Both the position numbers and the translations under genes were made by a program. Shown piece after piece: positions 8,146 to 20,666 of a stretch of DNA of 27,095 nucleotides. A model generated the notes under the pieces. The model was not told the origin of the DNA. It was given only the letters and a program-made list of their open reading frames with translations, and searched no databases. Source of the stretch: a virus (Duplodnaviria > Heunggongvirae > Uroviricota > Caudoviricetes); the IMG/VR virus record IMGVR_UViG_2537562194_000033. One strand, 5' to 3'. Position 1 is the stretch's first letter, and the number at the start of each line of letters is the position of its first letter.

Positions 8146-8946
8146 TTAACCGCGCTTCGCCTTCTGCGTCGCGGTGGTTTTTCGTGTTGCAGGCTTCCGC
8201 GTTGTCTTTTTACTTTTGCTGCTTTCGTCCTGCGCCTGCTGTGCGCTGGCGTCTTCTGGTTCGGCTGCGGAATCGGCTTTTTTCAGGGCGCGGGAAAGGG
8301 TTGCAATCTCGCGTTTCACACCTGCGTTCGGGTTCAGGTGCATCGCTTCGCGCAGCAGCTTCAGTGATAAGGCCATGTTGTCTGCATCGGTCAGACCACG
8401 ACGGGCAAAGGCGCACGCCTTGCATAATTTGGCGCGCACTTCGTCCGGCATGTCCTGGTCGGTGACAATCTCCCGGAGGGTATCCAGTGGTTCGATAAAG
8501 GCGGATAAATCCGCGTCGGCATCCGTCCCGGCCTGCGTCAGTACCGGGTTGCAGATTTCTTCGGTCAGTACCGTGGCAGCAGTACGGCCAAAGTTATCCG
8601 GCATAATGAGGTTATGACGGACCACATACGCACCAATACGCAGCGCCAGCGGAAGATCGCCGCAGTCAATCGCCCACACCATCAGCGTGGCAATCACTTC
8701 ATCCTGCTGCCCGCCGTCAGCCTCCAGCGTTCCCTCAATCCAGCCGGAAAAGTCCGGCAATAACTCTTTTTTGATGGCGGCTTTCGCGCTTCTGGCCTGT
8801 ACGCCCTTAAGCCGGGCCTGTGCCAGACGCAGACGATACAGCACCTCTTCATGCGCGGTACGCGCGGCGTGGTCCACGCCTTCATTCGCCCGGCCTGCGC
8901 GCTGTGCCATCACGTTCTGCCAGTGTTGCTGTGCAGGAGTAATCAT
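8146..8946 (-). CDS. M: terminase small/endonuclease subunit gpM
   Basis: 266 aa, ATG at 8946 with a GGAGAG ribosome-binding site. Position between capsid N and L fits P2 gpM. Confidence 0.8.
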   Translation of the reverse strand: MITPAQQHWQNVMAQRAGRANEGVDHAARTAHEEVLYRLRLAQARLKGVQARSAKAAIKKELLPDFSGWIEGTLEADGGQQDEVIATLMVWAIDCGDLPLALRIGAYVVRHNLIMPDNFGRTAATVLTEEICNPVLTQAGTDADADLSAFIEPLDTLREIVTDQDMPDEVRAKLCKACAFARRGLTDADNMALSLKLLREAMHLNPNAGVKREIATLSRALKKADSAAEPEDASAQQAQDESSKSKKTTRKPATRKTTATQKAKRG

Positions 8947-11059: not shown

Positions 11060-12811
11060 ATGATTCAGGACGCTTTTGTGCGCCAGCGTGCGCGGCAACT
11101 TTACTGGCAGGGTTATCCGCCCGCAGAAATATCACGTCTGATGGGAATAAACCCGAACACGATTTATGCGTGGAAAAAACGCGACCAGTGGGATGAAACG
11201 CCACCCGTGCAGCGTGTCACGCAGTCCATCGATGCGCGCCTCATCCAGCTTACTGAAAAACAGAATAAAACAGGCGGTGATTTTAAGGAAATAGACCTGC
11301 TGACCCGGCAGCTTAAAAAGCTGCATGATGGCCATCCGGATGTGATGGCCGCAGGAAAGAAAGGCCGGGCGAAAAAACTCAAAAATCATTTCACGCCGGA
11401 ACAGATTGCCGCACTGCGGGAAAAAATCATCAACAGGCTGGAGTGGCATCAGCGGGGCTGGTTTGACTCCCTGACCCTTTGCAGGGAAGCCGGGATACGT
11501 AACAGGATGATCCTGAAATCCCGACAGATTGGGGCGACCTGGTATTTTGCACAGGAAGCACTGCTGATGGCGCTGCGTGACGATGTGGCGCAACCTTACC
11601 AGCGTAACCAGATTTTTTTGTCTGCGTCGCGTCGTCAGGCGTTCCAGTTTAAAAGCATTATTCAGAAGGCTGCGGCTGAAGTTGATGTGGAGCTGAAAGG
11701 GGGCGATAAAATCATCCTCTCCAATGGCGCAGAGCTGCATTTTCTCGGCACTTCTGCTGCGTCGGCACAGTCCTATACGGGCAATTTTTATTTTGATGAA
11801 TTTTTCTGGGTCAGTCGCTTTGCTGAACTGCGCAAGGTGGCTGGCGCTATGGCAACCCTCAGCGGACTGCGGCGCACCTACTTCTCCACGCCATCCACCG
11901 AAACGCACGAGGCATACGCCTACTGGAACGGCGACCGCTGGAACGAGAAAAAGGCCTTGCATAAACGCCAGCGTTTTTCTGTGGACTGGAAAACGCTGCA
12001 TAACGGGCTTATCTGCCCTGACCGGACGTGGCGGCAAATTGTCACGCTGGAAGATGTGGTTAATCACGGCTGGAAACACACCGATATCGACGAAATTCGT
12101 GATGAAAACACCGAAGACGAGTTCCTCAATCTCTATATGTGTGAGTTTGTCCGCGAAGGGGAATCGGCATTTAACCTGAATATCCTGATTGGCTGCGGTG
12201 TTGACGGATACGACGACTGGAAAGACTGGAAACCTTTTGCTCCCCGCCCGATGGGGAATCGTCCGGTATGGATTGGGTATGACGCAAACGGCAGCAGTGG
12301 CAACGGCGACAGCGGCGCTGTGTCTGTGGTGGTTCCTCCGGCTGTTCCTGGTGGCCGTTTTCGAACGGTGGAGACGCGACGCGTTCAGGGGCTGGAGTTT
12401 GAAGAACAGGCCAGAGTCATTGAAGAGTTCACGTGTCGCTACAACGTGGAACACATCGGCATTGATGTGACGGGCGGGAACGGGGAGGCTGTTTATCAGA
12501 TAGTGAAACGGTTTTTCCCTGCTGCTATTCCGTACACCTTCACGCTGTCATCAAAACGGTCGCTGGTACTGAAAATGCTGCAAATAATGCGTGCCGGGCG
12601 GTGGGAATACGATCGCGCCGAACGCGAGCTGGTCGCGGCCTTTAACGCCGTGCGTAAGGTGAAAACACCGGGCGGCTTTATCACTTACGAAACGGACCGC
12701 GCGAGGGGGATCAGCCACGGCGACCTTGCGTGGGCAACCATGCTTGCTGTCATTAACGAACCAATTGGCGGCGAAGGAGAAAACGAGCGTTTCACGGTTA
12801 TGGAGTTCTGA
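11060..12811 (+). CDS. P: terminase large (ATPase) subunit gpP
   Basis: 583 aa, ATG at 11060 after GGGGGAG. Contains a KSRQIGAT Walker-A-like motif. Size and position fit P2 gpP. Confidence 0.9.
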   Translation: MIQDAFVRQRARQLYWQGYPPAEISRLMGINPNTIYAWKKRDQWDETPPVQRVTQSIDARLIQLTEKQNKTGGDFKEIDLLTRQLKKLHDGHPDVMAAGKKGRAKKLKNHFTPEQIAALREKIINRLEWHQRGWFDSLTLCREAGIRNRMILKSRQIGATWYFAQEALLMALRDDVAQPYQRNQIFLSASRRQAFQFKSIIQKAAAEVDVELKGGDKIILSNGAELHFLGTSAASAQSYTGNFYFDEFFWVSRFAELRKVAGAMATLSGLRRTYFSTPSTETHEAYAYWNGDRWNEKKALHKRQRFSVDWKTLHNGLICPDRTWRQIVTLEDVVNHGWKHTDIDEIRDENTEDEFLNLYMCEFVREGESAFNLNILIGCGVDGYDDWKDWKPFAPRPMGNRPVWIGYDANGSSGNGDSGAVSVVVPPAVPGGRFRTVETRRVQGLEFEEQARVIEEFTCRYNVEHIGIDVTGGNGEAVYQIVKRFFPAAIPYTFTLSSKRSLVLKMLQIMRAGRWEYDRAERELVAAFNAVRKVKTPGGFITYETDRARGISHGDLAWATMLAVINEPIGGEGENERFTVMEF

Positions 12812-13857
12812 TGAGCAGAAAAAATAAAAAAGTGCGCATGAGTTCACGCATTGATCTCGCTGATGCGCTCAGGAAAGAATCGTCGCTCAGTGCATTCACT
12901 TTTGATGGTCCTTATCGCCTGACCGGGCATGATTTGCTGGACAATATGTACTGTGCTGATAACGGGCGGTGGTATGAAACCCCGGTGGACTGGTACGGTC
13001 TGGCAAGAGCCGCCCGGCAAACGTCCTGGCATCAGTCTGCGCTTTACTTTAAGCGCAATGTATTGCTCGGCTGCTATATTCCGCACCCGCTGCTTTCCCG
13101 GCAGGATTTCTCGGCGCTGGCGCTGGACTGGTTTGTGTTCGGTAACGCATTCCTTGAGCTTCGAAGCAATATGCTCGGCGAACCGCTTAAATTACGGCAC
13201 GCCCTGGCGAAATACATGCGACGCGGAAGCGATCTTGAATCATGGTGGTATGTGCAGGATGGCAAGGATGCGTTTCAGTTTCGCCCTGGCAAAGTGTGCC
13301 ACCTGATGAATCCGGATATTAACCAGGAAATCTACGGCATGCCGGAATATCTTGGCGCATTACTCTCGGCCAGCCTTTCTCATTCGGCGGACATGTTCAG
13401 AAAACTGTATTACGACAACGGATCCCACGCCGGGTGCATCATCTACATCGGTGCAGCGCAGGTAAACCGCGAAAGCATGGACTCCCTGAAAGAAACGTTA
13501 CAGGGTGCGCGTGGTGGTGGTGCATTTAAAAACGTGCTCATTCATGCGCCCAACGGGGGCAAAGAAGGTGTGCAAATTTTGCCGTTCCAGCAGATCACCG
13601 CAAAGGATGAGTTCATGAATGTTAAGGCGGCATCCCGTGATGATGTACTGGCTGCGCACCGCGTTCCGCCGCAACTGATGGGGGCGATGCCGGGTGAAAA
13701 AAGTGCGTTTGGTGATGTGGAGAAGGCCGCGCGGGTTTACGCAATTAACGAGCTGATGCCCGTCATGGAGGCCATGAAGCACATCAATGACTGGCTTGGC
13801 GAAGAGGTGATCCGCTTTAACCCTTACGCACTGTTAGATACCCAGCCCACATCCTGA
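12811..13857 (+). CDS. Q: portal protein gpQ
   Basis: 348 aa, ATG overlapping the P stop (TGATG). Last gene before the cos region, as in P2. Confidence 0.9.
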   Translation: MSRKNKKVRMSSRIDLADALRKESSLSAFTFDGPYRLTGHDLLDNMYCADNGRWYETPVDWYGLARAARQTSWHQSALYFKRNVLLGCYIPHPLLSRQDFSALALDWFVFGNAFLELRSNMLGEPLKLRHALAKYMRRGSDLESWWYVQDGKDAFQFRPGKVCHLMNPDINQEIYGMPEYLGALLSASLSHSADMFRKLYYDNGSHAGCIIYIGAAQVNRESMDSLKETLQGARGGGAFKNVLIHAPNGGKEGVQILPFQQITAKDEFMNVKAASRDDVLAAHRVPPQLMGAMPGEKSAFGDVEKAARVYAINELMPVMEAMKHINDWLGEEVIRFNPYALLDTQPTS

Positions 13858-14311
13858 CGCGCTTCGCTTGTCTGCTGCTTCGCCGGGGCATAAAAAATTT
13901 ATGCCCCGACTCTCCAGCTCCTGTATCAGTCAGATAATTTCACGACGCTTTCCTGCTTATTGCCATCATCGACGGTCAGACTCTTACGCAATCCCACTGC
14001 GCTGACTGCATGTTCTCGCCGCCTCAGTGCGATTTTGACGGCCTTATCTTCCACCCCATCAAATCAAAAGCCCTCACGTATTTTTCACGCTCAGCGTGAG
14101 AAATACGGCCATTCTGTCGTGTCGCTGCGACATCGTTAAGGGAACGCTATTTACCCCCTGAAACGCGGGCTGTTCCCCCGTCACCTGCGCACAGGAAAAA
14201 CGCGTTTTTTGTGCACGCACGGATCCTTGACGGATCCAGCCGCCATGCGGGCCGGAAGGGCAAAAAGTCGTTCAAAAAAATTGTGCAAATTTGTGCACTT
14301 TTGTGCAAAGA
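13858..14311. other. cos / packaging region (position inferred from gene order only)
   Basis: Non-coding stretch between the portal gene and the cargo operon. In P2 the cohesive ends lie just beyond Q. Contains a perfect palindrome GGGGCATAAA-AAA-TTTATGCCCC at 13884-13906 and a GGATCC-N5-GGATCC motif near 14222-14238. The exact cos cut site was not identified. Confidence 0.3.
14209..14307. repeat. TTGTGCA(A/C) direct repeats, three at exact 10-bp spacing plus one upstream
   Basis: TTGTGCA at 14209, 14281, 14291 and 14301, each preceded by a T or A tract. Confidence 0.6.
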
Positions 14312-14336
14312 AATGCCCCTCAAATTGAGGGGCATT
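14312..14336 (-). terminator. putative intrinsic terminator of the cargo operon
   Basis: AATGCCCCTCAA-A-TTGAGGGGCATT inverted repeat starting 14 nt after the protease stop, followed on the minus strand by TCTTTG. Confidence 0.5.
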
Positions 14337-14349
14337 ATGTCTTGAAGGA

Positions 14350-16575
14350 TTACGAACGAATAGGAATTGATGTTTGCGGTTGAATTGGCACGAGCACCTG
14401 ATTATAAGTACGTAAAATTTCGTTATACAGGTCTTGGTGCTTTGATGCCTTAATGGTAATTATAAGAGCATACTTGATTTTTTCTGCCTTATGGCTGGCT
14501 ATGCTTGCACCGGCCTCACGAGCGTTATAATGAATGTCAAATACAGGATTTTTTAGAGTTGAACCTAGCATGTTCTTCGAATTATGTAAGACGGTCTCCC
14601 ATTTGCCCATGTCAGAACGTCGCTCACTTTCAGTTGAATATTTGGCCAGTTCAAAGAATCCCTTGGTTTCAGCATTTTGTTTTCCGTCTTTGATTTTTGA
14701 ATCATTTGGCCGGAATGTCACTTCCAAACCAGCTTTTGTATAGGAAGCTGGGTCTTGTGGATCAGTGGTTGTTGCATAACAGAAAGTTGCCGCTAAGTTT
14801 ATTCTACCTTTCAAGCCACCTTCAGGTATTGGAAGAGAAGCGCGTAAGTATTTTCCTGGTTTCAATTCACCTTGGTAGACGATACGGGCAACACCATCAG
14901 GGCTGACTATAATGTCGTTCAAGTCTTCAGGCAGTTTTCCCCAGCCAACTTCTGTACAAGGATGATCAAGCTGTTTTGACGCATGAATTAACAAAGCTTT
15001 GATTGCTAGTAGGCTCAAATCGTTCCCTAAAATTGCCCGAACACCAACAGCTGCTCGTAAGGCGTAAGGAGAGGCAAAGCTTGTTCCTAGCTGGGGTATG
15101 ATTACAGGCTTCTTACCTTTACCTAAAACATGAAAGTACTCGTCTGTGTCACCACCAAACGCAACTAAATCCGGTTTCATCACGCCAGGACTTCTGCCTG
15201 GCCCAATGGCGCTATATGGTGCTCGTTTCCATTCCGTATCATTAACTGTATCACAAGCACCAACAGCAAGAGCATTAACGCAATCGGCTGGTACTTGAAT
15301 TCTTGCATTACCAGACTTGCGATCCATTTCTCCATTGTTGCCAACAGCAACAGTCATTAATGTTTCACCATCACTTAACAAATCATCAATAACGGAAGTC
15401 CATGCATGAACTTCCGTATCTTCAATTGGTAGGTCTGGACCTAAACTTAGATTGATAAACTGATACTGGCGAGACAACAATACCTCTTCAATAAAGCCCA
15501 AAGTTCGATATAGTTCCAGCGGATCTTCTTGGCAGGTCTTGTTGTCCAAAACTCTTAAGTTATCAATATAAGAGTATGGTCTTTTCGCTTCCGATTTATT
15601 ACTTATTGGTCCAAATAAAAAGGCTGAAGACACAGCTAAACCATGCTCTAAACCGTCTGGATCATCCTCTGCATGATCGTCCAAAACTCTATAGGATTTT
15701 AACCATGGCGATATAGCGTGCTCTGATGGTAAACCACCATCAAGAATCGCAACTTTTATTTCTGAAGATACGGGGCCCTCAGCAGGTAATTTACACTGAG
15801 CTAAAGGACCGTAGTTCCTTTGTATTGGTCTAATCCCACGCAATCTTGGAACCGGTCTTATTACTCGTACAAATGTAAATTTCGCAAGCTTACTAATAGT
15901 AATTCTATCGGCCTGGATTGGCACGAACCATAATGTACCAGCGGTAAAAGCTAATGAAGTATGTACTTTGATGTTCAAATTTGATGCAAACTGAACAAAT
16001 TGTTGCTGAACCAAGTCTTGTTCATTATCTGACAGTAAATGAACACCAACCTCAAAATACGAAGAATCCTGCTCACCAATGGTAATAATACGCTCTTCGG
16101 GTAAATAGGCATCGAACCGTTCTATGCGTGCAAAATCAATCGCTTCGTCAGAAAACTCTTTGAGTCCTGACACCCAATGAGGTAACTCTTTGAAGGATTC
16201 TCTTTTACCAGCAACAAACATTTGTGTCGTAGTTACTTCTGACACAGTAACTTTTCGCTTCCAGCTTTGAGGCGTAATTTTTACCGTCCTGCTGCCAATA
16301 GACGTTAACCCGGTAGACTTAAGCATTTTTGCAGGAAAAAAAGAGCGTGCAATATAGCTTGGATTCAACGTCAACTTAGCCACAGCATAATCATAAGGAC
16401 ATGCCTGACTGGGTAAATCATCAAAATTTTCTATAGTAGATGCAATTTGCGGCAATAAACGTTGTTTCGATTCGTAAAGAGAATAAACCTCAGCTTTTCC
16501 GGGCACTCTTTTAGGACCAGGAATATCGCTGGTTAATAATTCGCCGCGTCCAATCAGAAAATTAGTTTTCGCCAT
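14350..16575 (-). CDS. S8 subtilisin-like serine protease with uncharacterised N- and C-terminal domains (IetS-like?)
   Basis: 741 aa, ATG at 16575 with AGGAG 6 nt upstream. Catalytic motifs in canonical order: D279 (VAILDGG), H311 (LEHGLAV), N413 (VAVGNNGE), S499 (LGTSFASP). Flanked by ~265 aa N-terminal and ~200 aa C-terminal regions with no motif I recognise. AT-rich relative to the phage core. Confidence 0.85.
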   Translation of the reverse strand: MAKTNFLIGRGELLTSDIPGPKRVPGKAEVYSLYESKQRLLPQIASTIENFDDLPSQACPYDYAVAKLTLNPSYIARSFFPAKMLKSTGLTSIGSRTVKITPQSWKRKVTVSEVTTTQMFVAGKRESFKELPHWVSGLKEFSDEAIDFARIERFDAYLPEERIITIGEQDSSYFEVGVHLLSDNEQDLVQQQFVQFASNLNIKVHTSLAFTAGTLWFVPIQADRITISKLAKFTFVRVIRPVPRLRGIRPIQRNYGPLAQCKLPAEGPVSSEIKVAILDGGLPSEHAISPWLKSYRVLDDHAEDDPDGLEHGLAVSSAFLFGPISNKSEAKRPYSYIDNLRVLDNKTCQEDPLELYRTLGFIEEVLLSRQYQFINLSLGPDLPIEDTEVHAWTSVIDDLLSDGETLMTVAVGNNGEMDRKSGNARIQVPADCVNALAVGACDTVNDTEWKRAPYSAIGPGRSPGVMKPDLVAFGGDTDEYFHVLGKGKKPVIIPQLGTSFASPYALRAAVGVRAILGNDLSLLAIKALLIHASKQLDHPCTEVGWGKLPEDLNDIIVSPDGVARIVYQGELKPGKYLRASLPIPEGGLKGRINLAATFCYATTTDPQDPASYTKAGLEVTFRPNDSKIKDGKQNAETKGFFELAKYSTESERRSDMGKWETVLHNSKNMLGSTLKNPVFDIHYNAREAGASIASHKAEKIKYALIITIKASKHQDLYNEILRTYNQVLVPIQPQTSIPIRS

Positions 16576-16598
16576 ACATACTCCTTATCTATGCTGTA

Positions 16599-17720
16599 TT
16601 ACATTTTTTGACTGTATTTTCTAATTGTATCCCTACTGACTCCGGTTAAGTCTGATATGGCATGCTGGGATAATTTAGAATTTCTTTTTAGAGTAACTGC
16701 AATTTCTTTACGTTCATTCCTGTCTAATTCTGATAAACCATCTTTAATGAACGACCCAATCAACTCTTCATCTGAGGAAATACCTAAAGCGACCGAACGT
16801 CGGAATTTGTTGATAGAACGCTCAATATTACTAAAAGATTCATTTTTGAACATAATAGCCAGTAGATCTATCCAACGTGCAAAAATCGCGTAGTCGGGAC
16901 CCGAAAAGCGTTTAATTGCTTCTTTAATACTTTCGCTATCTGGCTTCTCAAAATTGAGCACTAAATCAAAACGTCTCCATAGTGCTGGATCAATCAACTC
17001 AGCGAAGTTAGTTGCAGCAAGTAGCAAACTAGAAGACGGCCATTCGTCAACCTCCTGGAGTATCACGGTAACAAGTCTTTTTAATTCTCCAACATCAGAA
17101 TCATCACTTCTCTTTTTGGCGATTGAATCAATTTCATCTAACAGAAGAACGCACGGCCCTTTCTTCGCAAAATCTAGAGCTGCCCGAAGGTTATTTCCGC
17201 TTTTGCCCAGATAGCTGCTCATTACTGCCGTTAAATCAAGAACGTAAAAAGGAACCCCTAATTTCTGAGCTAACCAGCTTGCCGTAAGTGTTTTACCGAC
17301 ACCCGGAGGGCCAACAAAAATGGCAGAGCGTGTTGGTTGTAAGCCGAGAGTCTTGAGGCGATCGATGTGCTTCCGCTCAAGAATAATTTGATCCAGTGAG
17401 TCTTCTATCTGACTGGACAGTAGAGGTTTGCTCACAATCTTTTCATTTGGTGCTTTAAGCAAGGTAAGCCTTGACTCCTCGTCCACAGGCATGGTTTGAG
17501 GCAGCGCTTGTTTTGGTGCGGTAACCTTACGCAGGCTTTGTGCAGGCTTTTGCGGTTTATTTCGTAGATAAAGATCAAGCTGCTCGGATAGAGCAGGCAT
17601 AGTTTCCCGATATTTACGCACCAAGCGAGCGACATATAACCGAACGTCATCATACTGTTCAGTTATTACCAGTCTAACTAGTTGGGCTAAATCTGACTGA
17701 ATACCACCTAAGTCGCCCAT
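16599..17720 (-). CDS. AAA+ ATPase with C-terminal HTH-like tail (IetA-like?)
   Basis: 373 aa, ATG at 17720 with AAGAGG upstream. Walker A GPPGVGKT (K143), Walker B VLLLDEID, sensor-1 AATN, RR at 249-250. The last ~25 aa (SKLSQHAISDLTGVSRDTIRKY) look like a helix-turn-helix. Stop is 23 nt before the protease start, so the two are an operon. Confidence 0.85.
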   Translation of the reverse strand: MGDLGGIQSDLAQLVRLVITEQYDDVRLYVARLVRKYRETMPALSEQLDLYLRNKPQKPAQSLRKVTAPKQALPQTMPVDEESRLTLLKAPNEKIVSKPLLSSQIEDSLDQIILERKHIDRLKTLGLQPTRSAIFVGPPGVGKTLTASWLAQKLGVPFYVLDLTAVMSSYLGKSGNNLRAALDFAKKGPCVLLLDEIDSIAKKRSDDSDVGELKRLVTVILQEVDEWPSSSLLLAATNFAELIDPALWRRFDLVLNFEKPDSESIKEAIKRFSGPDYAIFARWIDLLAIMFKNESFSNIERSINKFRRSVALGISSDEELIGSFIKDGLSELDRNERKEIAVTLKRNSKLSQHAISDLTGVSRDTIRKYSQKM

Positions 17721-17900: not shown

Positions 17901-20666
17901 TTATTTTTTCTTCTCGCTATTGCCTTTGTCCTGCAACAGACCCGCCTTGTGACGTGCGCGTTCAGTGGTTTCATTGATTCTCTGTGCGTGCTCTGCGTCA
18001 CGGATGGCGCGCAGCATGTCAGAAAGCACGGTAACGGGGGGGTTCATGGTGTTCTGGTCCTGCTGAAGTGTGGATACCAGGCGTGCGGCGGCTTCGGGGT
18101 CTGATGCCCCCAGCTGTTCCAGATAGCTGGCGACCGGGTTATGGCGGATCTCCGTGCTGCTTACGCCGTGATTACGGCTCAGGCGCTGCCAGAGCTGCGT
18201 GATTCGGCTGTCCGGGCGGGTATCCGGTTTGCGTACAATTTCAAATCCCTGCGGTGCAATGATGCTGCCGTCAACGTACAGGCTGCCGCCCCGTAACAGG
18301 TGCTGCATCTGCTGTTCACCGATATGCAGGCCGAGAGATTCAGCAGATTCCCGCCATTCTTTAGCGAGTAATTCGTGGTTATCAGGCAAAGGCCGCTGCT
18401 GTTTGCGGCTCTGTGTCCAGCTCTGCATTTCATCACTGCTGTTTTTTGCCTGTTTGTCACGCAGCGAACGCATCAGCGCCCGGCGTTCGTGCCGTTTCAG
18501 TGAGCGCATCCATTCGTTCACTTCAACGCCGTCAGGGAGCTGCGGCCACGGTGCTGGCCGTTCTTCCGGCTGTTCTGCCCCGTTGTTGTCCGTTTCCTGT
18601 ACACGGGGACAGTTATTGCCACGAGTCCAAGGGGCGGCAGGGCCGCCCTGAAGGTCAAAACCATTTTCGCGGGCGCTGTCTTCCGTTTCCGGTTTACGTC
18701 TTACCAGTTTCCAGTTATCCGGATGCGTGCACACACGGGAGGATTCCCCGATGAGTGGTGACCAGATCCCGTAAATCTGTACGCTCTGTTCGCCGTAATC
18801 ATTCAGCTCATCTGCGAGGTCGTAGGCGGTGCGAATCAGGTAGTCTTTGCGTGGAACAAGTACGCCGCCCTGTTTTTCAATGTAGGAGGCAAAACACCCG
18901 GCATCAGCGGCAGCGAGTACCGCATCCATTGCATCATCCTTCAGCCGTTGCGGGCCTTCCGGGTTGCGTGCCATCTGGCTGGCAAGGCGGCGGAGTTCAC
19001 GCCATACCTGACGGGAGGGGATGCCAAAGAACTGGAACTGGCGGACCCGATGAAGACGCGCCCAGCCAATGGCGCGCTCCACGCTCTCGGCCATTGATTT
19101 TCCGGTTTCGTGGTCAACGCGTGGCTTGCCCGTTTTCGGGTCGATGCCATCTACGGCGCGGCTGTCCAGGTTTTTTCCGATGTAGGTCGCGATATAGCTG
19201 GTTGGTGTGCCTTTTGAGCCGTCGACATACTCCGCCTTAAAGCGCGGAGTAATATCATCGCCCAGTTCGTGACGATCTTCCTGAATGGCAATATCGCGGG
19301 TGATGGCCACGATGCTGTCGATTTCTTCCGGATGAGCAAAGACCATCATATGCCAGTGCACGGTGCCGTCATGGTGAGGCTCCACCGTGCGGATGCCATA
19401 CCAGCGCAGGCCGTCGCGGTTCAGTTTTTTGCGGACCGCCGCAAAAAACGTGTTAACCAGGTAATCGCTGGAGTCGCGCATGGTGGCCCCGTTCCATTTG
19501 GGGTTCGGATGACCGTTCTCCGTTGTTGCGTGGTATTTTGACGGGCAGGTGACAGTCAGAAACACCGCTTTGTCACCACGGGCTTCGGCCAGAAGTTCCA
19601 GCCCCTTCATGGTGGCCATCATTTCTGCCTTACGGTGAACCGGGTTACTTACTCCCGCGTAATACACTGTCTCGAGATCAATCGTGAACCCGTCTTCATT
19701 TTCCAGCATGAAACTTTTCAGGAAATCGCGTGTTTTCTCGCGCTGTGCGCGAAACTCGCTTAACGCGTCCTGGCTCAGATAGGGCGATGTTTTTCTGGAA
19801 ACCAGACAGGCGGCGCGGAGTTGTTCTTCTCTCCACTCGCAACGTAACAGCCACAGTTTGCGTTTCCACCATTCCGCACAGGTCAGGCGAAGGATTGCGC
19901 CCGGCAGCAGCTCCGTGTCCGGTTCGTTCCTCCGGTCTTTGTCTGTTGTCAGTGCGTCATAATGTGGAGGCATGGCGTGCAGGTGTAACGCCATGCGGGC
20001 CAGCATCTGATACGCCTTCAGCGTTACATCCATGGTCAGTTCGCCATCGGTCGCGCCAAAGCCATCGCAGAGTTTTTCGAAGGTGCTGCTGAACATCGCC
20101 GCCGTCATGGTGGCCAGTGTCTGTATCTGGTGTTTGTTGAGCTGCGGCAGGTAAAGCAAATCGTCCAGGCGTTCGCGTCCGGCAAGGGAGCGATAACCCT
20201 GTGTCAGCCAGCGGTGATCGGTGCGCTCCAGACGTTCGAATATTTTGCGCAGGTTTCCGCGCGCGTAGCGTTCAGCCTGCCAGCTCTTTTTGCCTTTCTG
20301 ACGATCGGCTTCCTGTTTTTTGCGCAGGAAGGAGAGGTGGCGAATAAGCGGATCGCGCAGATAGGACGGCAGCAGGCGCAGCGAGGCCATGGCTTCATCC
20401 ACCGCGCCGCGTGCCTGTTTTCTGGCATCTCCTGCCAGTGTGATGGTTTTGTCCTGTTTTTCCTGTGCGTCCAGGCTTTTATTAATCAGGTTGCCCAGCG
20501 GCGTTGCGGAGAACGCCGCATCAGCCATTTCCTGGCGGCGCTCGTTCTCTACCCGGTAGGCATCCAGCCAGGAGGAAAGCGCGGATTCAGGAGCGGGGAT
20601 CCCCGTTCCTTCACGCCCCACTGCGTGGCGCGGTTGTTGCCAGTCCCTGATGTACTCTGCCGTCAT
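17901..20666 (-). CDS. A: replication initiation endonuclease gpA (rolling-circle initiator)
   Basis: 921 aa. Contains HHDGTVHWHMMVFA (HUH-like metal site) and YIATYIGK (catalytic Tyr region), as expected for the P2 A family. Confidence 0.9.
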   Translation of the reverse strand: MTAEYIRDWQQPRHAVGREGTGIPAPESALSSWLDAYRVENERRQEMADAAFSATPLGNLINKSLDAQEKQDKTITLAGDARKQARGAVDEAMASLRLLPSYLRDPLIRHLSFLRKKQEADRQKGKKSWQAERYARGNLRKIFERLERTDHRWLTQGYRSLAGRERLDDLLYLPQLNKHQIQTLATMTAAMFSSTFEKLCDGFGATDGELTMDVTLKAYQMLARMALHLHAMPPHYDALTTDKDRRNEPDTELLPGAILRLTCAEWWKRKLWLLRCEWREEQLRAACLVSRKTSPYLSQDALSEFRAQREKTRDFLKSFMLENEDGFTIDLETVYYAGVSNPVHRKAEMMATMKGLELLAEARGDKAVFLTVTCPSKYHATTENGHPNPKWNGATMRDSSDYLVNTFFAAVRKKLNRDGLRWYGIRTVEPHHDGTVHWHMMVFAHPEEIDSIVAITRDIAIQEDRHELGDDITPRFKAEYVDGSKGTPTSYIATYIGKNLDSRAVDGIDPKTGKPRVDHETGKSMAESVERAIGWARLHRVRQFQFFGIPSRQVWRELRRLASQMARNPEGPQRLKDDAMDAVLAAADAGCFASYIEKQGGVLVPRKDYLIRTAYDLADELNDYGEQSVQIYGIWSPLIGESSRVCTHPDNWKLVRRKPETEDSARENGFDLQGGPAAPWTRGNNCPRVQETDNNGAEQPEERPAPWPQLPDGVEVNEWMRSLKRHERRALMRSLRDKQAKNSSDEMQSWTQSRKQQRPLPDNHELLAKEWRESAESLGLHIGEQQMQHLLRGGSLYVDGSIIAPQGFEIVRKPDTRPDSRITQLWQRLSRNHGVSSTEIRHNPVASYLEQLGASDPEAAARLVSTLQQDQNTMNPPVTVLSDMLRAIRDAEHAQRINETTERARHKAGLLQDKGNSEKKK

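What the first reader, a model, noticed from the sequence alone, without database searches (positions are those of the whole stretch)
14205..14310. Helically phased TTGTGCA(A/C) repeats next to the cos region
Three copies sit exactly 10 bp apart (14281, 14291, 14301) with a fourth at 14209, each preceded by a T or A tract, between the cargo terminator and the portal gene. Phased repeats suggest cooperative binding of a protein on one DNA face, such as a terminase small-subunit recognition array or a host architectural protein. They are not explained by any coding feature.
Basis: seen in the sequence. Interest (0 to 1): 0.45.

Follow-up and report, generated by a model that had tools for sequence, protein, structure and literature searches.

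The report
Phased packaging-signal repeats beside P2-type cos
The four TTGTGCA repeats are real and are a conserved, previously unannotated outer part of the DNA-packaging (cos) signal of P2-family phages, whose repeat "word" changes together at all copies between phage lineages and is shared by each lineage's satellite elements.

Summary
TTGTGCA(A/C) sits at 14209, 14281, 14291 and 14301. No exact 7-mer triplet at 10-bp spacing appeared in 300 shuffles.

The window is a P88-like (P2-family) prophage. The repeats lie just right of the predicted 19-nt cohesive-end site (14169-14187), and the IetAS defence cargo follows them.

The same layout is in P2, 186, P4 and most of about 60 diverse proteobacterial P2-like prophages:
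- one proximal word about 35 bp from the cos core;
- a sequence-variable spacer of fixed length (72 bp word to word in 45 of 48 loci);
- two or three words 10 bp apart.

The word changes in concert at proximal and distal sites: ATGCA in P2/186/P4, GTGCA here, GACGG-like in some betaproteobacterial prophages, ACGCA in a Shewanella phage. Satellites without a terminase carry their helper lineage's word (P4: ATGCA; a 12.5-kb E. coli island: GTGCA). In 76 P88-like prophages, homology ends right after the third word.

Best reading: a cosB-like recognition array for the phage terminase. Binding is untested. The published 55-bp P2/P4 core ends at the proximal word; the distal triplet is unannotated in reference records.

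The parts
14169..14187 (.). Predicted 19-nt cohesive-end site (cosN core), GCTGTTCCCCCGTCACCTG. It is the counterpart of P2 GTGCTTTCCCCGCCTCGCC in this orientation.
   Evidence: Placed by aligning on the CCCCG core with the annotated cosL/cosR of P2 and cos of 186. The cleavage positions are inferred, not measured.
14205..14216 (+). T tract plus the proximal word TTGTGCAC (GTGCA core at 14211-14215, +35 from the first C of CCCCG). It corresponds to the right-hand edge of the 55-bp block that P2 and P4 share.
   Evidence: The TTTTTGTGCA block is at least 90% conserved in 16 G-class loci. The P2/P4 shared block GCGCGC...TTTTAATGCA is 55 nt by my hand count and ends at this word (sequences).
14217..14280 (.). 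Spacer of conserved length but variable sequence. It holds two ACGGATCC direct repeats (14219-14226, 14230-14237; both contain GATC), a G+C-rich imperfect dyad (about 14240-14256) and phased A tracts (14263-14267, 14274-14280).
   Evidence: Word-to-word distance is 72 bp in 45 of 48 scorable loci. Alignments need almost no gaps. The P2 versus P4 spacer is 19% identical.
14281..14288 (+). Distal word 1, TTGTGCAA (GTGCA at 14283-14287, 72 bp from the proximal GTGCA).
14291..14298 (+). Distal word 2, TTGTGCAC, 10 bp after word 1.
   Evidence: The word 1 to word 2 spacing is 10 bp in 45 of 45 loci.
14301..14308 (+). Distal word 3, TTGTGCAA, 10 bp after word 2. It is the last conserved element before the variable cargo.
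   Evidence: In 76 P88-like prophages, homology stops right after this GTGCA and continues into at least 15 unrelated contexts.
14312..14336 (-). Hairpin terminator of the cargo operon (AATGCCCCTCAA / TTGAGGGGCATT). It marks the boundary and is not part of the array.
   Evidence: Perfect 12-bp inverted repeat. It lies at the 3' end of the minus-strand cargo genes.
11060..12811 (+). Terminase large subunit (gpP-like). N-terminal helix-turn-helix at residues 6-63 (nt 11075-11248), followed by ATPase and nuclease domains. Candidate reader of the words.
   Evidence: Pfam Terminase_5 1.8e-26, HTH_23 4.3e-07, Terminase_6N 1.4e-49, Terminase_6C 6.2e-31. The recognition-helix motif differs by word class.
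8146..8946 (-). Terminase small subunit (gpM-like). Alternative candidate reader.
   Evidence: Pfam Phage_term_smal 5.6e-37. The AlphaFold2 model has pLDDT 82 and is all-helical, with a disordered segment at residues 21-27 and a disordered basic C-terminal tail. The best PDB fold matches are TPR proteins at E >= 0.02. No PDB sequence relative was found.

Best explanation
The four repeats are recognition words of the phage's own packaging enzyme. Together they form the right arm of a P2-family cos site, playing the role cosB plays in lambda. The arm is bipartite. One word (with a weaker second half-site) sits about 24 bp from the right-hand nick of the cohesive-end site. A triplet of words 10 bp apart, so on one face of the helix, begins exactly 72 bp further on. 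Several DNA-binding modules of the terminase holoenzyme would occupy these words. The fixed-length spacer would be bent or wrapped so that both sites are held by one complex, placing the nuclease domains on the cos core. The identity of the word (GTGCA here, ATGCA in P2/186/P4) sets packaging specificity, so a satellite must carry its helper lineage's word. Shown here: the anatomy, its family-wide conservation, the concerted change of the word, the helper-satellite match, and purifying selection on the words. Inferred: protein binding, which subunit binds, and DNA wrapping.
For: (1) Same layout in reference phages. P2's right end has TAATGCAC near cos, then TAATGCAA, TCATGCAC and GAATGCAA about 100 bp out. 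186 and P4 are the same. Enterobacter phage T5282H and P88 have the GTGCA form.
(2) In 63 GTDB prophage loci with a recognisable core (portal 45-78% identical; gamma- and betaproteobacteria), the proximal word starts at +34 to +36 and the distal copies at +106 to +108, +116 to +118 and +126 to +131. The proximal-to-distal spacing is 72 bp in 45 of 48 loci, and the first distal step is 10 bp in 45 of 45.
(3) The 90% consensus right of the cos core keeps only the T tract plus proximal word and the distal words. The spacer varies in sequence but not in length.
(4) The word changes in concert. First-base patterns (proximal, d1, d2, d3) are AAAA in 23 loci and GGGG in 12. A G-type proximal word is never paired with an A-type first distal word. 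A third word (GACGG/GCCGG) appears at both sites in six betaproteobacterial loci. A fourth (ACGCA/ACGCG) appears at both sites in Shewanella phage M16-3.
(5) Satellites. P4 shares with P2 only the cos region (PMC9122126). The P2/P4 spacer is 19% identical, yet the words are in register. Sixty-seven close P4-like satellites (psu at least 96% identical) have 1 polymorphic column in the 33-column distal block against 22 of 56 in the spacer. A 12.5-kb E. coli island has integrases, a primase, an Ogr/Delta zinc finger and a P2-type capsid homologue, with no terminase, portal or tail genes. It carries the GTGCA-type core, proximal word and triplet and recurs in 56 genomes.
(6) In 76 P88-like prophages, the conserved sequence ends right after word 3 and then enters at least 15 different cargo contexts. 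The GTGCA cores appear invariant in that set when the polymorphism marks are read by eye against the consensus.
(7) The cognate proteins are present: gpM-like (PF05944) and gpP-like with an N-terminal HTH. The only two columns in the 60-residue HTH that separate A-type from G-type loci lie in the recognition helix, [AP]T[VI][HQ]SW versus NT[ILV]Y[AS]W.
Against: No binding or packaging experiment exists for this array.
The literature I could read calls the P2/P4 cos site a 55-bp core. That block ends at the proximal word, so the distal triplet may be dispensable for plasmid transduction and act only as an enhancer. I could not read the primary paper (Ziermann and Calendar 1990).
The G class is a single clade in every protein. 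Class-diagnostic columns also occur in the portal and capsid proteins, so the HTH correlation does not discriminate. Aeromonas phage LPM4 has an atypical HTH residue with an ATGCA proximal word and a degenerate distal array.
Some lineages (the Photorhabdus/Xenorhabdus group) keep only two degenerate distal words.
The array lies on the side of cos away from the terminase genes. The direction of P2 packaging could not be checked here, so the analogy with lambda cosB, which sits on the first-packaged side, is incomplete.
In P2 the third word overlaps the -35 of the old promoter. In P4, words 2-3 form the stem of the hairpin after psu. Some local constraint therefore has other causes.
Confidence: 0.72

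Rival explanations
1. The words are bound by a host architectural or regulatory protein (IHF, Fis, CRP-like, or another), or they act only as intrinsically curved DNA that helps cos function without a sequence-specific phage reader.
For: In the window, A/T tracts are phased every 10-11 bp through 14263-14313, which is the signature of bent DNA. Lambda cosB uses IHF (established knowledge). The spacer has a conserved G+C-rich dyad and GATC sites that something else might bind.
Against: The word differs between phages of one host: P2, 186 and P4 have ATGCA while P88-like phages have GTGCA, all in E. coli. It changes in concert at sites 72 bp apart. No IHF consensus with up to 1 mismatch lies in 14140-14340. 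The phased A tracts are specific to the G class and are absent from most ATGCA-type arrays, so curvature is not the conserved feature.
Confidence: 0.07
2. The repeats are transcription signals for the neighbouring genes: a promoter or operator for cargo or late genes, or a terminator or insulator between the cargo and head operons.
For: In P2 the third word overlaps the -35 (TTGAAT) of the old-tin promoter, whose starts are annotated at 33424/33426. In P4, words 2-3 form a hairpin followed by a T run just after psu. The terminator scan flags the weak palindrome 14283-14298.
Against: No sigma-70-like promoter was found in 13850-14450. The cargo here is transcribed towards the array and has its own perfect-stem terminator at 14312-14336. 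The array is conserved whatever the cargo and its orientation. The proximal copy, co-varying 72 bp away inside the classical cos core, is not explained. The word occurs only once elsewhere in the 27-kb window, unlike an operator family.
Confidence: 0.05
3. The array is a recombination boundary: a site or homology anchor at which defence cargo is swapped, conserved for that reason and not for packaging.
For: Homology among 76 P88-like prophages ends within a few bases after word 3 and continues into at least 15 unrelated cargoes. The cos-proximal region is a known hotspot of defence genes (PMC9122126).
Against: P4 keeps the array although its own hotspot (gop, beta, cII) lies on the opposite side of cos. 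The sharp boundary is equally expected if the array is the outermost essential element. Conservation reaches across proteobacterial classes with a fixed 72-bp geometry and a co-varying proximal word, which a homology anchor does not need.
Confidence: 0.06
4. The repeats are a plasmid-type centromere (parC-like) or replication iterons.
For: Phased direct repeats are typical of both. In phage P88 the adjacent cargo includes ParM and a partition protein.
Against: The array is present with unrelated cargo: IetAS here, and many other cargoes. In P88 the region upstream of parM lies at the far end of the cargo, next to gene A. Satellites and P2 itself have the array without par genes. The P2-family origin lies inside gene A (established knowledge).
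Confidence: 0.02

Closest known systems
cos site of phages P2, 186 and satellite P4 (the '55-bp core' of Ziermann and Calendar 1990, as cited in PMC9594776, PMC3931495 and PMC5694545)
   Same: Same position: after the portal gene, before the cargo and gene A side. Same type of G+C-rich 19-nt core. Same T tract plus proximal RTGCA word at +35. Same distal triplet at +107, +117 and +127 to +131, seen by me in the P2, 186 and P4 records. Same terminase gene set.
   Different: The word is GTGCA instead of ATGCA. The core is CCCCCGTCACC instead of CCCCGCCTCGCC. The third step is 10 bp instead of 12-13 bp. The distal triplet lies outside the cited 55-bp core. It is not annotated in the P2 or 186 reference records, and P4's record shows only a coding gene in that stretch. 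It is not mentioned in any paper I could read.
cosB of phage lambda (R3-I1-R2-R1 sites bound by the gpNu1 winged helix-turn-helix, with IHF at I1); established knowledge, not tested here
   Same: Several short repeated terminase-recognition words beside the nicking site. A spacer that must be bent to bring sites together. The words determine packaging specificity between related phages.
   Different: No IHF consensus is present. All words are direct repeats, with a 10-bp-phased triplet. There is a fixed 72-bp gap. The HTH is on the large subunit and the small-subunit model has none. The array lies on the side of cos away from the terminase genes.
HK97 small-terminase recognition site in cos (PMC11331095)
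   Same: A defined short site in the cos region read by the terminase of a cos phage. It shows that a small terminase without a folded DNA-binding domain can still read sequence through termini that are disordered when DNA is absent. That keeps gpM in play.
   Different: HK97 has a single minimal site threaded through a ring, not a bipartite phased array. The proteins are unrelated: no PDB sequence relative of gpM was found.
pac sites of SPP1/SF6-type phages (repeated small-terminase boxes in intrinsically bent DNA); from my own knowledge, not tested here
   Same: Phased repeated boxes with A tracts flanking the cut region, thought to wrap around an oligomeric terminase.
   Different: Those are headful (pac) systems with an N-terminal HTH on the small subunit. 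There are no cohesive ends.

Membership tests
P2-family (Peduoviridae) cos site | Lies in the intergenic region downstream of the portal gene (gpQ), between the head and terminase module and the cargo and gene A side | tested here: met
   Portal at 12811-13857, then the array, then IetS/IetA and gpA (PF05840). P88, T5282H and P2 have the same order.
P2-family (Peduoviridae) cos site | G+C-rich 19-nt cohesive-end core related to GGCGAGGCGGGGAAAGCAC | tested here: met
   14169-14187 aligns on CCCCG with the annotated P2 and 186 cos. The same variant core, CCCCCGTCACC, is in 76 P88-like loci.
P2-family (Peduoviridae) cos site | DNA is actually cleaved there to give 19-nt 5' cohesive ends | not testable with these tools
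   This needs virion DNA end sequencing. The apparent break at CACCTG in locus L023 looks like an IS1 end from my memory of the sequence (not checked with a tool), not a virion end.
P2-family (Peduoviridae) cos site | Conserved right-arm block ending in a T tract plus RTGCA (the right edge of the 55-bp P2/P4 core) | tested here: met
   TTTTTTGTGCAC at 14205-14216. TTTTTGTGCA is at least 90% conserved in the G class and TTt.ATGCA in the A class.
P2-family (Peduoviridae) cos site | Cognate terminase genes gpM (PF05944) and gpP (Terminase_5 + 6N + 6C) in the same element | tested here: met
P2-family (Peduoviridae) cos site | Sufficient and necessary for packaging by the helper terminase | not testable with these tools
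   There is only indirect support: satellites lacking a terminase keep the whole arm.
Lambda-type cosB | Repeated terminase-binding words beside the nicking site | tested here: inconclusive
   The repeated words are present and co-vary. Binding is not shown.
Lambda-type cosB | IHF site between the repeats | tested here: not met
   No WATCAANNNNTTR with up to 1 mismatch in 14140-14340.
Lambda-type cosB | Winged HTH on the small subunit reads the repeats | tested here: not met
   The gpM model is all-helical and TPR-like with no HTH. The HTH is on gpP.
Sigma-70 promoter or operator | -35 and -10 hexamers with 16-18 bp spacing facing a gene | tested here: not met
   0 sites in 13850-14450.
Known structured RNA | Match to an Rfam covariance model | tested here: not met
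   0 matches at E <= 1 in 13700-14500.

The most novel reading that the evidence does not exclude
P2-family terminases recognise cos through a five-word, bipartite, fixed-geometry site: two proximal half-sites plus three phased distal words, 72 bp apart. The words are read by the helix-turn-helix fused to the large subunit, not by the small subunit. The word (ATGCA, GTGCA, ACGCA, GACGG and so on) would then be a lineage-specific packaging code that decides which satellites a helper can mobilise. Helper-satellite compatibility could be read from sequence and re-engineered by swapping one base per word.
Probability: 0.3. Interest if true: 0.65.

Novelty: new member of a known kind. Interest (0 to 1): 0.45.

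Why it matters
P2/P4 particles are being engineered as DNA-delivery vehicles, and published cosmids with different cos flanks differ about 2000-fold in transduction (0.035 versus 1.7e-5; PMC9594776). If the distal triplet is a real part of the signal, constructs built on the '55-bp core' may be sub-optimal. The one-base difference between word classes would give a simple handle on which helper packages which cosmid or satellite. The array also defines the exact inner edge of the P2 defence-gene hotspot, which helps delimit cargo automatically. It gives a sequence marker (core + 35 bp + word + 72 bp + triplet) for finding cos sites and terminase-less satellites in genomes. This particular version is in 1145 of 5426 complete E. 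coli genomes.

Tried and rejected
- **Primary literature.** I could not read Ziermann and Calendar 1990, the Lindqvist 1993 P4 review or the Christie and Calendar 2016 P2 review. Eight full-text searches found only the '55-bp core' statement and nothing on distal repeats or on which subunit binds. The direction of P2 packaging (Chattoraj and Inman 1974) could not be retrieved.
- **Telling gpM from the gpP HTH by covariation.** Columns that separate A-type from G-type loci exist in P (21), M (6), Q (14) and N (17). This is because the G class is one clade, so the test does not discriminate.
- **PDB relatives of gpM.** There are none by sequence and only weak TPR-like fold matches. This does not exclude DNA reading through disordered termini, as in HK97.
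- **K139 and Pseudomonas phi3.** They are too divergent, and no comparable core was found downstream of the portal gene.
- **Rejected readings.** IHF site; sigma-70 promoter; known RNA; real coding ORF 14147-14335; parC-like centromere suggested by ParM cargo in P88.
- **Apparent DNA end in L023.** The break after CACCTG looks like an IS1 insertion, recognised from memory of the IS1 end and not checked with a tool.
- **First alignment of P2.** It was off by 19 bp because the P2 record carries the cohesive end at both termini. This was corrected.

Full report
**1. The observation**

The sequence shows TTGTGCAC at 14209, TTGTGCAA at 14281, TTGTGCAC at 14291 and TTGTGCAA at 14301. All are on the + strand and each follows an A or T run. 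Only one other TTGTGCAM exists in the 27-kb window. Tandem Repeats Finder gives period 10 with 3.3 copies.

An exact 7-mer repeated three times at 10-bp spacing occurs once in the window and in 0 of 300 dinucleotide-preserving shuffles. A cluster of four copies in 110 bp was never reached in shuffles.

**2. Context**

The window is a P88-like prophage (Xuanwuvirus, P2 family). The stretch 13860-14314 is 93-96% identical to phage P88 and its relatives. The local order, is:

| Feature | Coordinates | Strand |
|---|---|---|
| gpM-like small terminase | 8146-8946 | - |
| Capsid and scaffold genes | between gpM and gpP | - |
| gpP-like large terminase | 11060-12811 | + |
| Portal | 12811-13857 | + |
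| P2-type cos core, GCTGTTCCCCCGTCACCTG | 14169-14187 | . |
| The repeats | 14205-14308 | + |
| Perfect-stem terminator | 14312-14336 | - |
| IetS | 14350-16575 | - |
| IetA | 16599-17720 | - |
| Replication gene A | 17901-20666 | - |

IetS and IetA form an IetAS defence pair. The 160-bp cos-plus-repeat stretch occurs in 1145 of 5426 complete E. coli genomes. No gene is annotated under it in nearly all listed rows.

**3. The same anatomy in the reference phages**

I read each phage in the window's orientation.
- P2's right end has ...GGTTTTAATGCACC... just after the cohesive end, then TTAATGCAATCTCATGCACCCTTGAATGCAAC about 100 bp out.
- 186 and satellite P4 show the same arrangement.
- P88 and Enterobacter phage T5282H show the GTGCA form.

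None of these words is annotated in the P2 or 186 records, and P4's record shows only a coding gene in that stretch. By my hand count, the block P2 and P4 share, GCGCGC...TTTTAATGCA, is exactly 55 nt and ends at the proximal word (sequences). This fits the '55-bp core' attributed to Ziermann and Calendar 1990 in the papers I could read. The phased triplet lies 66-95 bp beyond it.

**4. Family-wide test**

A scan of one genome per species with a portal alignment returned 80 prophage loci. Portal identity was 45-78% for all but L101 (100%), from gamma- and betaproteobacteria. Sixty-three had a recognisable core.
- Measured from the first C of CCCCG, the proximal word starts at +34 to +36. The distal copies start at +106 to +108, +116 to +118 and +126 to +131.
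- Proximal-to-first-distal spacing is 72 bp in 45 of 48 scorable loci.
- The first distal step is 10 bp in 45 of 45 loci. The second step is mostly 10 bp (G class) or 13 bp (A class).
- In 90% consensus lines, the only conserved blocks right of the core are the T tract plus proximal word and the distal words. The spacer varies in sequence but almost never in length, and often holds a G+C-rich dyad.

**5. The word changes in concert**

- First bases at (proximal, d1, d2, d3) are AAAA in 23 loci and GGGG in 12.
- A G-type proximal word is never paired with an A-type first distal word.
- Six betaproteobacterial loci carry GACGG/GCCGG-like words at both sites.
- Shewanella phage M16-3 carries ACGCA/ACGCG at both sites.

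Sites 72 bp apart that change together are most simply read by the same protein. The word differs between phages of one host (E. coli: ATGCA in P2, 186 and P4; GTGCA in P88-like phages), so that protein should be phage-encoded.

**6. Satellites**

P4 shares only the cos region with P2 (PMC9122126). Beyond the proximal word, the P2 and P4 sequences are unrelated (spacer 19% identical), yet the three words are in the same register.

Of 80 P4-like loci fetched with Psu, 74 had a recognisable core, and all 49 distinct sequences showed the architecture. The 67 close ones (psu at least 96% identical) were scored for polymorphism:
- The 33-column distal block has 1 polymorphic column, against 22 of 56 in the spacer.
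- The more divergent satellites (psu 64-68% identical) keep the words with a different spacer.

A lower-identity hit to the window's cos region (82%) led to a 12.5-kb island between hpt and gcd in E. coli mip270_22.
- It has two integrases, a toprim primase, an Icd-like gene, an Ogr/Delta zinc finger, a P2-type capsid homologue and MazEF.
- It has no terminase, portal or tail genes.
- It carries the CCCCCGTCACC core, TTTTTTGTGCAC and TTGTGCAAATTTGTGCACTTTTGTGCAG.
- The same context recurs in 56 genomes.

Both helper lineages therefore have satellites that carry their word.

**7. Boundary and selection**

In 76 P88-like prophages with identical portal proteins, the sequence is conserved up to the third GTGCA. 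It then diverges into at least 15 unrelated cargo contexts. Within that set, polymorphism appears to fall between the words and the GTGCA cores appear invariant, judged by eye from the printed marks.

**8. Who reads the words**

Pfam finds an N-terminal helix-turn-helix on the large subunit (Terminase_5 at residues 6-63; also HTH_23, HTH_28 and sigma-70 region 4) and PF05944 in gpM.

The gpM AlphaFold2 model (pLDDT 82) is all-helical, with a disordered segment at residues 21-27 and a disordered basic C-terminal tail. Its best PDB fold matches are TPR proteins at E >= 0.02. It has no PDB sequence relative.

In the gpP HTH, the only two columns that separate A-type from G-type loci fall in the recognition helix: [AP]T[VI][HQ]SW versus NT[ILV]Y[AS]W. 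The D class and the Shewanella phage differ again.

This favours the gpP HTH only weakly, for three reasons:
- The G class is one clade, and diagnostic columns also occur in the portal and capsid proteins.
- Aeromonas phage LPM4 breaks a simple code.
- HK97 shows that a small terminase without a folded DNA-binding domain can read sequence through its termini (PMC11331095).

**9. Rivals**

- *Host factor.* The host-independent word switch argues against it, and no IHF consensus is present.
- *Promoter or RNA.* No promoter-like site or Rfam family was found. The cargo is transcribed towards the array and has its own terminator.
- *Local overlaps.* They do exist: the -35 of P2's old promoter overlaps word 3, and P4's post-psu hairpin uses words 2-3. 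They are lineage-specific.
- *Pure recombination anchor.* This does not explain the fixed geometry, the co-varying proximal word, or retention in P4, whose hotspot is on the other side of cos.
- *Centromere.* This was suggested by ParM cargo in P88. It fails because the array is independent of cargo.

**10. Verdict**

The repeats are real. They are the P88-lineage version of a conserved outer arm of the P2-family cos site, most likely a recognition array for the phage terminase. This makes them a new member of a known kind.

The distal triplet, its fixed 72-bp offset, the concerted word classes and the helper-satellite match are not annotated in the reference records. They are not described in the literature I could access. 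I could not read the 1990 primary paper, so priority is uncertain.

Noticed in passing
window 14350-17720 (- strand): The cargo between the cos array and gene A is a two-gene IetAS defence system. IetS is the S8 peptidase (14350-16575; PADLOC 1.1e-51). IetA is the AAA ATPase (16599-17720; PADLOC 1e-77). Enterobacter phage T5282H has the same pair at the same place.
   Followed up: partly
L173 (E. coli mip270_22, NZ_CM132655.1 about 2727200-2739800) and L175: A 12.5-kb satellite-like island between hpt and gcd. It has two integrases, a toprim primase, an Icd-like gene, an Ogr/Delta zinc finger, MazEF and an N-terminally extended P2-family major capsid homologue (423 aa). It has no terminase, portal or tail genes and carries a GTGCA-type cos. 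Its gene order differs from P4. The same context is in 56 complete E. coli genomes. A satellite that encodes its own P2-type capsid protein may deserve its own study.
   Followed up: partly
window 14219-14226 and 14230-14237: Two ACGGATCC direct repeats 11 bp apart, right after the proximal word. A GATCC at about +52 is common in G-class loci and some A-class loci, and GATC often directly precedes distal word 1 (GATCATGCR). These are possible Dam sites or a further binding element.
   Followed up: no
window about 14240-14256; spacers of L115, L124, L132, L142 and others: A G+C-rich (imperfect) dyad sits in the middle of the spacer, for example GCCCGCCAGTTCTGGCGGGC in many ATGCA-type loci. It is conserved as a dyad more than as a sequence. 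It could be a third element of the cos arm.
   Followed up: no
L023 (IMGVR_UViG_2681813261_000011): The P88-like cos core is interrupted right after ...GTCACCTG by GGTAATGACTCCAACTTATTGATAG. I recognise this from memory as an IS1 terminal repeat and did not check it with a tool. If so, it is a prophage whose cos site is disrupted by an insertion sequence.
   Followed up: no
L170 8170-8240 (Shewanella phage vB_SspM_M16-3): Beyond its ACGCA/ACGCG words, this phage has a run of tandem repeats, GCGATCCACGCGATCCACGCGATCC. This is a different elaboration of the distal arm.
   Followed up: no
window 13911-14168: About 260 bp between the portal terminator hairpin (about 13885-13907) and the cos core is conserved at 93-96% among P88-like phages. 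P2 has only about 160 bp there. P88's record annotates two small hypothetical genes in it. Its function is unknown.
   Followed up: no
window 17901-20666 (- strand): The gene A homologue is 921 aa, while the Phage_GPA domain covers only residues 179-503. It is much longer than the P2 protein as I recall it (about 760 aa), so it may carry extra domains.
   Followed up: no
window 11075-11248; all loci: Every P2-family large terminase examined carries the N-terminal HTH (Terminase_5). The small-subunit model shows no DNA-binding fold. This is an unusual division of labour compared with lambda, SPP1 and SF6.
   Followed up: partly
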